Origin: a virus
Taxonomy: Duplodnaviria > Heunggongvirae > Uroviricota > Caudoviricetes
IMG/VR virus record: IMGVR_UViG_2526164601_000033
Reading direction: 5' to 3' (one strand)
Length of the DNA: 18,343 bases
Made by a program: the position numbers and the translations under genes. Positions 4,532 to 15,794 of this stretch are shown piece by piece; within the stretch, counting starts at the first letter, position 1; every line of letters starts with the position of its first letter. A model generated the notes under the pieces. It saw only the letters and a program-made list of their open reading frames with translations. It did no database searches and was not told the DNA's origin.

Positions 4532-4589
4532 AAAAAGGGCGGCAGAGCAGTCACGGAGTAAAACTGATACCGCCAAACGTCACCAGAAA
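4532..4589 (-). ncRNA. dicF: DicF small regulatory RNA with its 3' terminator
   Basis: The reverse complement of 4532-4589 reads TTTCTGGTGACGTTTGGCGGTATCAGTTTTACTCCGTGACTGCTCTGCCGCCCTTTTT, which matches E. coli DicF as recalled, including the GGCGG/CCGCC terminator stem and U-run. It lies about 170 nt upstream of dicB on the same strand, as in Qin. Confidence 0.8.
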
Positions 4590-10758: not shown

Positions 10759-11517
10759 ATGAGGAACATAATGGCAGGTTTTTTAATATTCCTGTCTTCT
10801 GCTGCTTATGCTGATATCAATCTGTATGGTCCTGGTGGCCCGCATACAGCCTTGCTTGATGCAGCCAAACTTTATGCCGAAAAAACAGGTATTATAGTGA
10901 ACGTTCATTACGGCCCACAGAACAAATGGAATGAAGATGCCAAAAAAAATGCAGATATCTTGTTTGGCGCATCAGAACAATCTGCTCTGGCTATCATTCG
11001 GGACCATAAAGACAGCTTCAGTGAAAAAGATATTCAGCCTCTTTATCTGCGAAAAAGTATTTTACTGGTAAAGAAAGGTAATCCTAAAAATATCCGGAGT
11101 ATTGACGACCTGACCAGACCTGGGATTGGCGTAATTGTTAATGATGGTGGTGGTACCAGTAATACATCAGGCACTGGCGTCTGGGAAGATATTGCCGGAC
11201 GTAAAGGGAATATAGAAACTGTCGCCGCAATCCGAAAAAATATTATTTTATATGCGCCCAATAGCGGAACTGCACGTAAGGCTCTTGAGAATCAGCCTGG
11301 AGCAGATGTCTGGATAACCTGGGCTGACTGGGCAGCCAGTAATCCAGAAATTGGTGATGTCGTGGAAATAGCGCCAGACTACGTGATATGGCGTGATATG
11401 AACATTACAGTACGTCAGGATGCAAATGATGAAACCCGTCGATTTGCAGAATGGCTACAAACCGATGAAGCGGCGCCTGCATTCAAAAAATATGGCTGGA
11501 CCAGGAAAGGCACTTGA
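10759..11517 (+). CDS. Periplasmic solute-binding protein, ModA-like (molybdate/tungstate/sulfate-type PBP2 fold), with signal peptide
   Basis: 252-aa ORF with AAAGGAG SD. N-terminal signal-like MAGFLIFLSSAAYA. The blocks ADILFGASEQ, SILLVKKGNPKNI and C-terminal AEWLQTDEAAPAFKKYGW parallel E. coli ModA (ADLFISADQ, SLVVVAPKAS, YDYLKGPQAAEIFKRYGF) as recalled. The gene is AT-rich. Confidence 0.8.
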   Translation: MRNIMAGFLIFLSSAAYADINLYGPGGPHTALLDAAKLYAEKTGIIVNVHYGPQNKWNEDAKKNADILFGASEQSALAIIRDHKDSFSEKDIQPLYLRKSILLVKKGNPKNIRSIDDLTRPGIGVIVNDGGGTSNTSGTGVWEDIAGRKGNIETVAAIRKNIILYAPNSGTARKALENQPGADVWITWADWAASNPEIGDVVEIAPDYVIWRDMNITVRQDANDETRRFAEWLQTDEAAPAFKKYGWTRKGT

Positions 11518-11520
11518 CAT

Positions 11521-11549
11521 CCTCGTCCTTCAGGACGTGGATTCTTTTT
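11521..11549 (+). terminator. Possible intrinsic terminator after the binding-protein gene
   Basis: Imperfect stem CCTCGTCCT / AGGACGTGG followed by ATTCTTTTT. One mismatch in the stem and the T-run is offset. Confidence 0.35.
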
Positions 11550-11852
11550 CCGGATGCCGCGCCAGCGGCATGTAGGGGCAGCTCACAAAACGGAAAAAAT
11601 TGTACGCTAAGCCTCGCCAGGTGAACTGAATTCATTCCGATATGGGAATTCCCATATCGGGCGAAAACGGTTTGCTGTAACGGCAGAGTTAAGTAGGATT
11701 GCTGCGGGTGCTTGAGGCTATCTGCCTCGGGCATGAACACCAACGGCAGATAGATAAAAGCCCCACCCGACTATAAATCGAAGTGAGGCCCCTATATGCT
11801 CGTCACATATAGATTGCCTCTTACGGACCGAAAGGTCAAGGAGAAGCAGGCT

Positions 11853-12008
11853 ATGAAGCAGCAAAAGGCGATGTTAATCGCCCTGATCGTCATCTGTTTA
11901 ACCGTCATAGTGACGGCACTGGTAACGAGGAAAGACCTCTGCGAGGTACGAATCCGAACCGGCCAGACGGAGGTCGCTGTCTTCACAGCTTACGAACCTG
12001 AGGAGTAA
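11853..12008 (+). CDS. hokD: Hok/Gef-family membrane toxin (type I toxin-antitoxin toxin)
   Basis: 51-aa product MKQQKAMLIALIVICLTVIVTALVTRKDLCEVRIRTGQTEVAVFTAYEPEE matches HokD/RelF as recalled. AAGGAG SD. A long structured leader lies upstream, with palindromes at 11637-11660 and 11792-11812. Confidence 0.85.
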   Translation: MKQQKAMLIALIVICLTVIVTALVTRKDLCEVRIRTGQTEVAVFTAYEPEE

Positions 12009-12076
12009 GAGACCAGGCGGGGGAGAAATCCCTCGCCACCTCTGATGTGTCAGGCATCCTCAACGCACCCGCACTT

Positions 12077-12105
12077 AACCCGCTTCGGCGGGTTTTTGTT
12101 TTTAT
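12077..12105 (+). terminator. Rho-independent terminator downstream of hok
   Basis: Stem AACCCGC / GCGGGTT with TTCG loop, followed by TTTTTGTTTTT. Confidence 0.6.
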
Positions 12106-12116
12106 TTTCAACGCGT

Positions 12117-12146
12117 TTGAAGTTCCGGACGGCGCCGGAATAGAAT
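12117..12146 (+). promoter_or_regulatory. Promoter-like element with a palindrome in the spacer
   Basis: -35-like TTGAAG (12117-12122), 18-bp spacer containing the inverted repeat TTCCGG...CCGGAA, -10-like TAGAAT (12141-12146). Placed after the hok terminator and upstream of the Rem-like gene. Confidence 0.35.
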
Positions 12147-12228
12147 CAAAAATACTTAAGTAGCGCGCAGGGAGAAGAGGGATGGACCCCGAACAGGGGA
12201 GTGCTATTTATCTGGAAGGATTCTGTTG

Positions 12229-12486
12229 ATGAGAATCGAAGAATTACGTGAAATTTTTAGTGAAGGTGGCCTCTATACTGTGCGCGTTGAGAAGGGCGCT
12301 ATTGTCAGCCACTGCCGTATTAAATGTTTACAGTCTCAACAAAGGAAGAGTGGAGCTGCGTTAATTCATTTTGTGGATGGGCTTGTGACGGATGGTTTTA
12401 TTTTGCGTGCAAATGAATTTGTCACATCGTTGCCGTCTCTGAAAGAAGCTGGGATTAAGGCTGGTTTTTCTGCTTTTGAAGATTAG
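12229..12486 (+). CDS. Rem-like hypothetical protein (positional equivalent of rem in Qin)
   Basis: 85 aa from the ATG at 12229 (the track start 12226 is TTG). Sits immediately downstream of hokD and upstream of a DUF968-like gene, matching the hokD-rem-ydfU order of Qin. Sequence identity to Rem not verified. Confidence 0.5.
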   Translation: MRIEELREIFSEGGLYTVRVEKGAIVSHCRIKCLQSQQRKSGAALIHFVDGLVTDGFILRANEFVTSLPSLKEAGIKAGFSAFED

Positions 12487-14257: not shown

Positions 14258-14475
14258 ATAACCACTATTTACAGTTTGTGCGTGAGCAGCTCATTATCGC
14301 CACCGCTGATTTGAGTGGGGCAACAAAAGGTCAGCTTGAAGCCTGGCAGGAGAATGCCATGTTCGATACAGGGCGTTACAGGCGAAAAAAAATCCGGTAC
14401 CGCGATGAAGTGACTGGAAAAATGATAACGCGGGATAATCCACCAATCGTTATTATCCTGCGCCCGGCCCTTTAG
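14254..14475 (+). CDS. Hypothetical 73-aa protein; 3' end runs 10 nt into the first tRNA
   Basis: ATG at 14254 overlaps the rusA stop (ATGA), with GGAG 5 nt upstream. The stop codon TAG at 14473-14475 lies inside the tRNA. It occupies the position where a late antiterminator Q gene would be expected but is too short for one. Confidence 0.35.
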   Translation: MNNHYLQFVREQLIIATADLSGATKGQLEAWQENAMFDTGRYRRKKIRYRDEVTGKMITRDNPPIVIILRPAL

Positions 14476-14541
14476 CTCAGTGGTGAGAGCGAGCGACTCA
14501 TAATCGCCAGGTCGCTGGTTCAAATCCAGCAAGGGCCACCA
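14466..14541 (+). tRNA. tRNA-Ile2-like (anticodon CAU; Met cannot be excluded from sequence alone)
   Basis: Manual cloverleaf: acceptor GGCCCTT/AAGGGCC, D-arm GCTC-AGTGGTGA-GAGC, anticodon loop CTCATAA, T-arm GCTGG-TTCAAAT-CCAGC, encoded CCA. Resembles E. coli ileX-type tRNA as recalled. Confidence 0.8.
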
Positions 14542-14631: not shown

Positions 14632-14705
14632 GCGTTGTTAGCTCAGCAGGACAGAGCAATTGCCTTCTAAGCAATCGGTCACTGGTTCGACTCCAGTACA
14701 ACGCG
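14632..14705 (+). tRNA. tRNA-Arg (anticodon UCU, reads rare AGA)
   Basis: Manual cloverleaf: acceptor GCGTTGT/ACAACGC, D-arm GCTC-AGCAGGAC-AGAGC, anticodon stem ATTGC/GCAAT with loop CTTCTAA, T-arm ACTGG-TTCGACT-CCAGT. CCA is not encoded. Confidence 0.8.
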
Positions 14706-15477: not shown

Positions 15478-15643
15478 TTTTTTGTTTGCTGTTTATTAAA
15501 AACACTTCTGCATGGTGAATCCCCCTGTGCGGAGGGGCGATCAGCAACCAGGTATATGGGATAATCGCGGATTCAGGTGCTGATACTGAATTCACCGGGA
15601 GGCACCCGGCACCATGCAAGAAAAAGAATGTGCATGCAAACAT

Positions 15644-15667
15644 GCCCCTCTCCGGAGGGGCTTTTTT
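15644..15667 (+). terminator. Rho-independent terminator in the intergenic region upstream of the esterase gene
   Basis: Stem GCCCCTC / GAGGGGC with TCCG loop, followed by TTTTTT. Confidence 0.55.
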
Positions 15668-15794
15668 ATGGGTAAAAAATGCCCGAATGGGTTCGGGCAA
15701 CAGCATGAGATACTGATATTGTTGTGTTGTTATCGTGTGGATTTTAACCAGGGTTTATCAGGCTGCGCAACTGCGTGGCCTTTTTTCATTTCTT

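What the first reader, a model, noticed from the sequence alone, without database searches (positions are those of the whole stretch)
11518..12110. hokD-type type I toxin locus with a long structured leader, detached from relBE
The toxin matches HokD/RelF as recalled, but here it follows the binding-protein moron rather than relBE. It has a 335-bp upstream region with two perfect palindromes (CCGATATGGGAA/TTCCCATATCGG at 11637-11660 and CTATATG-N7-CATATAG at 11792-11812) and an in-frame upstream ATG at 11796 with a GAGG SD. hok loci are regulated by an overlapping mok frame, an antisense Sok RNA and fold-back mRNA elements (established). Whether this copy retains functional mok/sok elements cannot be decided by eye.
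Basis: partly seen in the sequence, partly recalled or inferred. Interest (0 to 1): 0.45.

Follow-up and report, generated by a model that had tools for sequence, protein, structure and literature searches.

The report
Intact prophage hok/mok/sok toxin-antitoxin cassette
This is an ordinary but complete copy of the well-known hok/mok/sok RNA-regulated killer-gene cassette, sitting in a lambdoid prophage of pathogenic E. coli. The laboratory-strain relBE-hokD arrangement is the truncated exception, not this copy.

Summary
A 51-aa ORF (11853-12008) is identical to HokD.

The locus is a canonical hok/mok/sok cassette. Rfam RF01794 scores 104 bits. Every element of the plasmid R1 model can be mapped: promoter, +1 at 11706, tac, ucb, mok SD and ATG, dcb, fbi and terminator. 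An antisense Sok gene of about 49 nt lies on the minus strand.

RNA folding reproduces the R1 switch. The full-length mRNA pairs tac with fbi and hides the mok SD. A 3'-shortened mRNA pairs tac with ucb and SD with dcb. Across 94 homologues, tac-fbi and ucb-SD keep pairing through compensatory changes.

The real leader is 147 nt, not 335. The small palindrome is the top of the Sok-target hairpin. The 24-nt palindrome lies upstream of the promoter and outside the cassette.

K-12 hokD shares homology only from the hok SD onward, so relBE-hokD is the derived form.

The 24-nt palindrome is a gene-less copy of an element that is frozen at synonymous sites inside KilA-N/BstA-family phage genes. Its function is unknown.

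Verdict: already known, low interest.

The parts
11519..11551 (+). paa terminator: hairpin 11519-11542 followed by a T-run. It separates paa from the hok cassette.
   Evidence: Terminator-like site; inverted repeat I4; fold -13.3 kcal/mol, z -3.0.
11637..11660 (.). Perfect 24-nt palindrome CCGATATGGGAATTCCCATATCGG. It is not part of the hok transcript. It is a gene-less copy of an element otherwise embedded in KilA-N/BstA-family genes.
   Evidence: It sits 4 nt left of the conserved cassette edge.
11671..11699 (+). Candidate hok promoter: -35 TTTGCT (11671-76), 17-nt spacer, -10 TAGGAT (11694-99), then 6 nt to the +1 G at 11706.
   Evidence: The position is conserved in all hok cassettes inspected. 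The -10 is TAGAAT, TATAAT, TAAAAT or TACAAT in other alleles. The consensus scan did not report it. Inferred.
11706..11717 (+). hok mRNA 5' end and tac element, GGGUGCUUGAGG.
   Evidence: Start of the Rfam RF01794 match. Aligns with the R1 +1 GGCGCUUGAGG. Pairs with fbi in the full-length fold and with ucb in the truncated fold. Forms a nascent metastable hairpin with 11724-11734.
11718..11753 (+). Conserved stem-loop between tac and ucb.
   Evidence: Helix 2 is 98% paired, with 3 compensatory pairs.
11758..11764 (+). ucb (anti-SD) AAGCCCC. It pairs either with the mok SD (closed form) or with tac (open form).
   Evidence: Numbering of the R1 aSD (A70-C72) from PMC9841398.
11785..11798 (+). 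mok Shine-Dalgarno GAGG (11785-88) and mok ATG (11796-98).
   Evidence: The SD is sequestered in the full-length fold and paired to dcb in the truncated fold.
11796..12008 (+). mok reading frame, 70 aa, in frame with hok. MLVTYRLPLTDRKVKEKQA precedes HokD.
   Evidence: The same architecture is annotated for mokW/hokW and mokC/hokC.
11792..11812 (+). CTATATG-N7-CATATAG: upper stem of the SD/dcb hairpin that holds the mok start. This is the target of the Sok 5' tail.
   Evidence: The region is hypervariable between cassettes.
11816..11820 (+). dcb, GCCUC. It pairs with GAGGC of the mok SD in the open form.
   Evidence: 100% paired in 94 sequences (helix 4).
11756..11804 (-). Predicted Sok antisense RNA, about 49 nt: an 11-nt single-stranded 5' tail, a hairpin and UUUU.
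   Evidence: Ends placed by analogy with annotated sokW and sokC, which start at mok +9 and end at the end of the U-run. Fold -18.7 kcal/mol, z -4.0, with the same architecture as SokW and SokC. The sense strand of the same region folds at only -8.3 kcal/mol, z -1.2.
11811..11839 (-). Candidate Sok promoter: -35 TTGACC (11839 to 11834), 17-nt spacer, -10 CAATCT (11816 to 11811).
   Evidence: Aligned with the R1, hokC and hokW equivalents. The -10 is a weak consensus match, like hokC's CACTCT. Not reported by the scan. Inferred.
11840..11843 (+). hok Shine-Dalgarno GGAG. Homology to K-12 hokD begins here.
11853..12008 (+). hok (hokD allele), 51 aa plus stop.
12016..12037 (+). 3'-UTR hairpin. 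By analogy with R1 it is the protective 3' stem-loop of the processed mRNA.
   Evidence: Helix 8 is 98% paired, with 5 compensatory pairs. The R1 role comes from PMC9841398.
12058..12070 (+). fbi, CCUCAACGCACCC, complementary to tac.
   Evidence: Compensatory changes across genera.
12077..12108 (+). Intrinsic terminator of the hok transcript.

Best explanation
The region 11664-12108 is a complete, self-contained hok/mok/sok type I toxin-antitoxin cassette carried as a moron in a lambdoid prophage integrated next to ompW. The prophage is of the PPompW / Qin type.

Inferred mechanism, following the plasmid R1 model:
1. A weak promoter gives a roughly 400-nt hok mRNA starting at 11706.
2. While the mRNA is being made, the 5' tac element is held in a local hairpin.
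3. In the finished mRNA, tac pairs with fbi (12058-70) and ucb pairs with the mok SD, so the mRNA is neither translated nor bound by Sok.
4. Slow 3' trimming removes fbi. tac then pairs with ucb, and the mok SD moves into the SD/dcb hairpin, which carries the small palindrome.
5. mok translation, and coupled hok translation, become possible.
6. The short, unstable antisense Sok RNA (about 11804 to 11756, minus strand) pairs with the mok start region and triggers RNase III cleavage.
7. When Sok supply stops or falls, as on prophage loss or induction, HokD is made and damages the inner membrane.

Shown here: all elements are present, the alternative pairings are predicted by energy, and they are supported by covariation.

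Inferred: the promoters, the transcript ends, the processing, the toxicity of this copy in situ, and the biological role (prophage stabilisation, or help with lysis as for hokW-sokW).
For: - Rfam RF01794 matches 11706-11855 at 103.9 bits, against a gathering score of 59.
- Pfam HOK_GEF, E=2.9e-23. The protein is identical to HokD, which serves as a toxic control in bioRxiv 10.1101/2025.08.07.668861.
- The alignment with R1-type hok and with K-12 hokB, hokC and hokE, BL21 hokD and 933W hokW places every element.
- 933W, 85.7% identical over the cassette, carries annotated mokW, hokW and sokW. That system was shown experimentally to be a type I TA system (PMC8621323).
- The full-length fold has tac-fbi pairing and a sequestered mok SD (-153.5 kcal/mol, z -7.1).
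- The fold truncated at 12040 switches to tac-ucb and SD-dcb. The nascent hairpin folds at z -5.0.
- Across 94 distinct homologues, tac-fbi is 96% paired with 3 compensatory pairs and ucb-SD is 98% paired with 4 compensatory pairs. No shuffle out of 500 reaches the observed values, and slid controls give 36-49% pairing. tac-ucb and SD-dcb are 100% conserved.
- tac and fbi change together: GGGCGCUUGAGA with UCUCAAGCGCCC in Photorhabdus, and GGGUGCUUGAAG with CUUCAUAGCACCC in Citrobacter.
- The antisense strand folds far better than the sense strand (-21.4 against -8.3 kcal/mol). Predicted Sok has the tail, hairpin and U-run architecture of SokW and SokC.
- The identical leader is kept in about 570-590 complete genomes.
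Against: - No expression data were available. Neither promoter was picked up by the consensus scan.
- The Sok -10 hexamer CAATCT matches TATAAT at only 2 of 6 positions.
- The hok -10 is TAGGAT here, where most alleles have TAGAAT.
- Chromosomal hok/sok loci tested earlier (hokA, hokB, hokC) did not give post-segregational killing, as summarised in the bioRxiv introduction. An intact sequence therefore does not prove activity.
- tac-ucb and SD-dcb never vary, so they are supported by conservation and energy only, not by covariation.
- The structure tested on the alignment was derived from the window sequence itself. This favours it somewhat over the slid controls.
Confidence: 0.85

Rival explanations
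1. The cassette is a silent relic. The sequence elements are intact, but hok and/or Sok are not expressed, or the system no longer kills, as reported for several chromosomal hok loci. The locus would then have no present function.
For: Both candidate promoters are weak and were missed by the scan. The Sok -10 is CAATCT. The hok -10 carries a G where most alleles have A. Earlier work found that chromosomal hokA, hokB and hokC did not mediate killing. K-12 loci are described as inactive in PMC1635323.
Against: There are no frameshifts, stops or IS insertions. Every paired element is kept. About 570 genomes from different serotypes have a 99-100% identical sequence. hokC has an equally weak Sok -10 (CACTCT) yet has an annotated SokC RNA. 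The close relative hokW-sokW is active.
Confidence: 0.1
2. hokD here is simply the last gene of a paa-hokD operon, transcribed by read-through from paa. This would parallel the co-transcription of relF/hokD with relBE in K-12. The upstream structures would then be incidental.
For: Same strand and close spacing. In K-12, relBEF is one transcript (PMC3598666).
Against: A hairpin plus T-run terminator follows paa directly. The hok cassette, with its own conserved -10 and +1, occurs unchanged behind many unrelated upstream genes. The covarying tac-fbi pairing needs a 5' end at 11706.
Confidence: 0.03
3. The 24-nt palindrome at 11637-11660 is an operator or structural part of hok regulation, as the reader's 'structured leader' implies.
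For: It lies only 10 nt upstream of the candidate -35. A second, unrelated junction type also places the same palindrome about 70 nt upstream of a hok +1 (L148 type).
Against: It is absent from 73 of the 77 leader-bearing viral contigs that encode the identical HokD, including three with the same short Sok cassette (L041, L069, L079). It lies outside the block conserved between cassettes. Its main home is the coding sequence of KilA-N/BstA-family genes in unrelated phages.
Confidence: 0.05

Closest known systems
hok/sok (parB) of plasmid R1
   Same: The same parts in the same order: promoter, tac, stem-loop, ucb, mok SD and ATG, Sok target hairpin, dcb, hok SD, hok, 3' hairpin and fbi. The same predicted switch between closed and open forms.
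   Different: Located in a prophage, not on a plasmid. The Hok protein is divergent. In the remembered canonical R1 sequence mok is out of frame with hok, whereas it is in frame in the R1-like plasmid copy fetched here. The Sok target region is unrelated in sequence, and predicted Sok is shorter (about 49 nt against about 64 nt for R1, from memory).
hokW/mokW/sokW of Stx2 phage 933W / Sakai prophage Sp5
   Same: A lambdoid-prophage cassette that is 85.7% identical over 11664-12080. mok is in frame, and tac, ucb, dcb and fbi are near-identical. It has been shown to be a type I TA system that depends partly on RNase III and Hfq and that helps lysis and phage release after mitomycin C (PMC8621323).
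   Different: 933W has the long Sok hairpin (71-nt SokW) and a different mok-start/Sok-tail sequence. The HokW C-terminus differs, and so does its position in the phage genome. This window has the short Sok hairpin class.
hokC (gef)/mokC/sokC of E. coli
   Same: In-frame mok with a similar N-terminal peptide (MLNTCRVPLTDRKVKEKRA against MLVTYRLPLTDRKVKEKQA; the MokC sequence is recalled, the coordinates are). Short Sok hairpin class. Sok -10 of the same weak type.
   Different: A chromosomal locus next to nhaA, disrupted at its 3' end by IS186 in K-12. About 80% protein identity.
hokD (relF) of E. coli K-12, third gene of relBEF in the Qin prophage
   Same: Identical Hok protein, 3' UTR, fbi and terminator, and the same downstream neighbours: a rem-like gene, DUF968 and Q.
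   Different: K-12 lacks everything upstream of the hok SD (promoter, tac, ucb, mok, Sok target and Sok promoter), which is replaced by relBE. The K-12 arrangement is the truncated derivative.
BstA abortive-infection proteins and their aba DNA element (relevant only to the 24-nt palindrome)
   Same: The palindrome is normally embedded in genes with an N-terminal KilA-N domain and a BstA-type C-terminal domain. BstA loci are known to contain a DNA-level self-immunity element inside the gene (PMC8585504).
   Different: The published aba is a 63-bp element at the start codon with terminal direct repeats, not a palindrome in the KilA-N region. The genes here are only about 32% identical to BTP1 bstA, and only over the C-terminal part. 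No bstA-like gene is present in the window.

Membership tests
Hok/Gef toxin family (Pfam PF01848) | Small (about 50 aa) protein with an N-terminal transmembrane helix that matches the HOK_GEF profile. | tested here: met
   E=2.9e-23, 81.6 bits against a cutoff of 22. Identical to RefSeq HokD WP_000813254.1.
hok/sok type I TA locus | Overlapping upstream mok frame with its own SD, through which hok translation is coupled. | tested here: met
   ATG at 11796 with GAGG 7 nt upstream. The 70-aa frame runs into hok. The annotated mokW and mokC have the same arrangement. Translational coupling itself was not tested.
hok/sok type I TA locus | Long-range 5'-3' pairing (tac-fbi) that closes the full-length mRNA. 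| tested here: met
   Present in the MFE and centroid of 11706-12075. 96% paired across 94 sequences, with compensatory changes.
hok/sok type I TA locus | Alternative pairings: ucb with the mok SD (closed form) against tac with ucb and SD with dcb (open form). | tested here: met
   Both states are predicted. ucb-SD covaries. tac-ucb and SD-dcb are invariant.
hok/sok type I TA locus | Cis-encoded antisense Sok RNA opposite the mok start, with its own promoter and terminator hairpin. | tested here: inconclusive
   A hairpin plus U-run is present and specific to the antisense strand. The promoter position aligns with R1, hokC and hokW, but the -10 is weak and the scan did not report it. No transcript data.
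hok/sok type I TA locus | Match to the curated RNA family for the hok leader/Sok region (Rfam RF01794). | tested here: met
   103.9 bits against a gathering score of 59, over the full model 1-157. The match is on the hok sense strand.
hok/sok type I TA locus | 3' exonucleolytic processing of hok mRNA, RNase III cleavage of the duplex, and killing when Sok decays. | not testable with these tools
   Needs northern blots or RNA-seq and toxicity assays. The 3' hairpin that protects the processed form in R1 is present and covaries (helix 8).
relBEF operon (K-12 hokD context) | hokD immediately downstream of relE and co-transcribed with relBE. | tested here: not met
   No relE is present. The upstream gene is paa, followed by a terminator.
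BstA/aba system (for the 24-nt palindrome only) | The DNA element lies within or next to a bstA gene and is cognate to it. | tested here: not met
   No KilA-N/BstA-like gene in the window. The element differs from the published aba in position and form.

The most novel reading that the evidence does not exclude
The 24-nt palindrome just left of the hok cassette may be a free-standing copy of a cis-acting DNA element whose normal home is inside KilA-N/BstA-family phage-defence genes. There it is preserved at synonymous sites and through symmetric double substitutions. As a gene-less copy it could act as a decoy or immunity site, in the manner of aba, that lets this prophage replicate in cells expressing such a defence protein. 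Alternatively it could be a recombination hotspot at which morons such as paa are joined to the hok cassette.
Probability: 0.15. Interest if true: 0.65.

Novelty: already known. Interest (0 to 1): 0.2.

Why it matters
For the hok locus itself there is little new. It adds one more intact member to a thoroughly studied family and is already annotated as hokD in hundreds of genomes.

Two points are useful.
- It shows what the complete hokD cassette looks like. The textbook K-12 relBE-hokD is a 5'-truncated derivative that keeps fbi but has lost tac, mok and Sok.
- The same HokD protein travels with several different Sok-target cassettes. This is what would be expected if the many hok/sok copies in one EHEC genome must avoid cross-talk.

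The side finding could matter more. If the palindrome conserved at the DNA level inside BstA-like defence genes proves to be a functional site, it would point to how these proteins recognise DNA or how phages escape them.

Tried and rejected
- I tested whether the 24-nt palindrome belongs to the hok leader. Rejected: it is outside the cassette homology, and it goes with paa rather than with the Sok cassette type.
- I considered that it is a library linker or assembly artefact, because of its central EcoRI site and its presence in contigs of 30-64% GC. Rejected for E. coli: it is in about 570 complete genomes from many laboratories. In other organisms it sits in frame in a conserved protein motif.
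- I considered that exact matches in KilA-N genes merely reflect the conserved peptide DMGIPIS. Rejected: a codon-unbiased sample shows frozen synonymous sites, and symmetric variants change the peptide but keep the palindrome.
- I considered that it is the published aba element. Rejected: different position and form.
- I looked for KilA-N gene remnants flanking the window copy. Only weak, stop-containing similarity on both strands, driven by the palindrome itself. Inconclusive.
- I looked for an 'empty site' to show mobility. None found.
- I suspected that L223 held a CRISPR spacer. It has only two 25-nt direct repeats flanking the palindrome, so it is not an array.
- The sigma-70 scan gave no support for either the hok or the Sok promoter. 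Their positions rest on alignment with characterised loci.
- My first manual coordinates for the hok ATG were off by one (11854). Corrected to 11853.

Full report
**Context**

The window is 100% identical to a lambdoid prophage integrated next to ompW in bovine and EHEC-type E. coli, for example strain E2865, O157:H7 and O121:H19. It also matches deposited 'PPompW' phages. The local gene order is: replication genes, pseudogenes, paa (an AcfC-family adhesin, 10759-11517), hokD, a rem-like ORF, DUF968, rusA and Q.

**Checking the observation**

- The toxin ORF is 11853-12008. Its product is identical to HokD of K-12 and BL21 and matches Pfam HOK_GEF.
- The ATG at 11796 is in frame with hok and has GAGG 7 nt upstream.

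**What the 335 bp contain**

Directly after paa there is a hairpin followed by a T-run (11519-11551). Homology to hok cassettes that sit behind unrelated upstream genes begins at about 11664, at AAAACGGTTTGC.

A conserved -10 lies 6 nt before a conserved G at 11706. It reads TAGGAT here and TAGAAT, TATAAT or TACAAT elsewhere. Position 11706 is also where the Rfam model RF01794 starts (103.9 bits) and where the R1 hok mRNA +1 aligns. The hok leader is therefore 147 nt (11706-11852). The 24-nt palindrome at 11637-11660 is upstream of the promoter.

**Element map**

[quoted passage not shown] Exact coordinates come.

| Element | Coordinates |
|---|---|
| tac | 11706-17 |
| stem-loop | 11718-53 |
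| ucb | 11758-64 |
| mok SD | 11785-88 |
| mok ATG | 11796 |
| small palindrome (top of the SD/dcb hairpin) | 11792-98 and 11806-12 |
| dcb | 11816-20 |
| hok SD | 11840-43 |
| hok | 11853-12008 |
| 3' hairpin | 12016-37 |
| fbi | 12058-70 |
| terminator | 12077-12108 |

mok is in frame with hok, as in the annotated mokW/hokW and mokC/hokC pairs.

On the minus strand, -35 TTGACC (11839 to 11834), a 17-nt spacer and -10 CAATCT (11816 to 11811) align with the Sok promoters of the characterised loci. Annotated sokW and sokC both start at mok +9 and end at the end of the U-run. Applying that rule puts Sok at about 11804 to 11756.

This 49-nt RNA folds into an 11-nt free 5' tail, a hairpin and UUUU. 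SokW and SokC fold the same way. The hairpin relies on G-U pairs, so it is much more stable on the antisense strand (-21.4 kcal/mol, z -4.2) than on the sense strand (-8.3 kcal/mol, z -1.2).

**Does it behave like R1?**

The R1 model is summarised in PMC9841398. It requires a closed full-length mRNA, with tac-fbi pairing and the mok SD paired to ucb. It also requires an open 3'-processed mRNA, with tac-ucb and SD-dcb pairing.

Energy minimisation of 11706-12075 gives the closed form (z -7.1). Truncating the sequence at 12040 gives the open form. The first 35 nt alone form the nascent metastable hairpin (z -5.0).

I collected 80 viral and 53 genomic loci that encode HokD relatives and aligned 94 distinct full-length mRNAs.

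- tac-fbi is 96% paired, with three pairs changed on both sides.
- ucb-SD is 98% paired, with four such pairs.
- The 3' hairpin is 98% paired, with five.
- No shuffle out of 500 reaches the observed values, and slid controls give only 36-49% pairing.
- tac-ucb and SD-dcb are invariant. This is expected for segments that must each pair with two partners.

Read directly from the sequences, tac and fbi change together in Photorhabdus, Kluyvera, Citrobacter and Pantoea.

**Relation to relBE**

K-12-type hokD matches the window only from about 11839, the hok SD, onward. It keeps fbi and the terminator but has lost the promoter, tac, ucb, mok, the Sok target and the Sok promoter.

- The relE-hokD junction is found in 1167 of 5426 complete E. 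coli genomes.
- Leaders of this family are found in every genome, at a median of 3 and up to 12 places each. The window's own allele is in about 590 genomes.
- Of 80 viral contigs that encode the identical HokD, 77 have the full leader and 2 have relE upstream.
- Strain E2865 carries both arrangements.

The cassette in the window is therefore the complete form, and relBE-hokD is the derived, truncated one. This agrees with my recollection of Pedersen and Gerdes 1999, which is not in the held library.

**Variation between cassettes**

The identical HokD protein, tac, ucb, dcb and fbi are combined with at least seven different mok-start/Sok-tail sequences and with two Sok hairpin classes.

The window has the rarer short class, ACCCGACTATAAATCGAAGTGAGG, seen in 7 of 80 contigs. 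Close relatives of this short class occur in Photorhabdus and Citrobacter loci.

EHEC genomes carry many hok genes: 12-14 according to PMC2887945, and 6-8 places per genome. Diversification of the Sok recognition region to avoid cross-talk is therefore a reasonable inference. It was not tested.

**Function**

The closest characterised relative is hokW-sokW of 933W/Sp5. It is a type I TA system that depends partly on RNase III and Hfq. After mitomycin C, SokW falls, HokW rises, and lysis and phage release are helped (PMC8621323).

I infer a comparable role here: prophage stabilisation and/or assistance with lysis.

Weak points:
- Neither promoter is found by the consensus scan.
- The Sok -10 is a poor match to the consensus.
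- Some chromosomal hok loci were inactive in earlier tests.

**The 24-nt palindrome**

It travels with the paa junction and not with the hok cassette. It is in 4 of 4 paa loci, and it is absent from the three short-cassette loci that lack paa.

The exact 24-mer is also present in other IMG/VR contigs and in 45 metagenome contigs of 30-64% GC. In about twenty of these contexts it lies in frame, as the peptide DMGIPIS, inside genes with an N-terminal KilA-N domain (Pfam) and a BstA-type C-terminal domain (PADLOC E=3e-21; about 32% identity to BTP1 bstA).

I took a sample of 46 distinct homologues found through degenerate peptide patterns, so the sample is unbiased for codon choice.

- The codons inside the palindrome are almost fixed, with codon entropy of 0-0.4 bit. 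Equally conserved residues elsewhere in the gene show 1-2 bits.
- Variants such as CCGATGTCGGAATTCCGACATCGG change the peptide to DVGIPTS but remain perfect palindromes.

The palindrome is therefore selected at the nucleic-acid level.

Gene-less copies occur in the window, at a second junction type that is also upstream of a hok cassette (L148 type), and in about fifteen unrelated places. The window has no bstA-like gene. In E. coli the gene-less paa-hok copy (about 570 genomes) is commoner than the gene itself (137 genomes).

It is not the published aba element, which is 63 bp at the bstA start codon with direct repeats. I found no paper in the held library that links BstA with a palindrome. 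Its function remains unknown.

**Verdict**

The finding is real and correctly recognised as Hok-family. It is an ordinary, already annotated, complete hok/mok/sok cassette.

Noticed in passing
window 11637-11660; L148, L149, L160, L191, L196-L240, L241-L320: The perfect 24-nt palindrome CCGATATGGGAATTCCCATATCGG is normally embedded, as the peptide DMGIPIS, in KilA-N/BstA-family phage genes across 30-64% GC. There its synonymous sites are nearly frozen, and symmetric double variants keep the palindrome. The window holds a gene-less copy at the paa/hok junction. Function unknown; not the published aba element.
   Followed up: partly
window 11991-11996: The Tyr47 codon TAC of hok lies in TACGAA, which is invariant in all 94 aligned hok mRNAs. 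It resembles the TadA A-to-I editing motif reported to recode Tyr to Cys in hokB, and said to apply to hokC, hokD and hokE (bioRxiv 10.1101/2025.08.07.668861).
   Followed up: no
window 11706-11855: The Rfam family named 'sok' (RF01794) matches the hok sense strand. Its consensus structure is the open form of the hok mRNA leader (tac-ucb, SD-dcb). The Sok RNA itself is on the opposite strand, so annotation taken from this hit would have the wrong strand.
   Followed up: yes
L011-L143 versus window 11761-11812: An identical HokD protein and identical tac, ucb, dcb and fbi are combined with at least seven different mok-start/Sok-tail sequences and two Sok hairpin classes. The window's short class is shared with Photorhabdus and Citrobacter loci. 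This suggests modular exchange or diversification of the antisense recognition region.
   Followed up: partly
NZ_AP018808.1 (strain E2865), 1751253 and 2157792: The same genome carries both the complete paa-hokD cassette and a K-12-type relE-hokD junction with the same toxin. The truncated copy has no Sok target.
   Followed up: no
window 4537-4588 (-): DicF antisense sRNA, 76.7 bits, in the immunity/early region next to dicB.
   Followed up: no
window 15481-15673 (+) and 15674-15735 (-): STnc100 sRNA (145.8 bits) directly abuts the anti-GcvB sRNA AgvB (95.6 bits) on the opposite strand, downstream of Q.
   Followed up: no
window 14466-14538 and 14632-14705 (+): Two prophage tRNA genes, annotated as tRNA-Ile and tRNA-Arg in the matching RefSeq record.
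   Followed up: no
window 12117-12146 (+): The only sigma-70-like site the scan reported in this region (TTGAAG, 18 nt, TAGAAT). It lies just after the hok terminator and upstream of the rem-like ORF 12226-12486, which has no Pfam match.
   Followed up: no
L223 6233-6314: In one metagenome contig the 24-nt palindrome plus TAGAT is flanked by two copies of a 25-nt direct repeat, GATTAAATTCTGCGCGCATTGGTTG. This looks like an insertion with a long duplication. Only two repeats are present, so it is not a CRISPR array.
   Followed up: partly
window 11554-11571: A further perfect 7-bp hairpin, ATGCCGC-GCCA-GCGGCAT, lies between the paa terminator and the 24-nt palindrome, in the paa-specific flank. 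Not explained.
   Followed up: no
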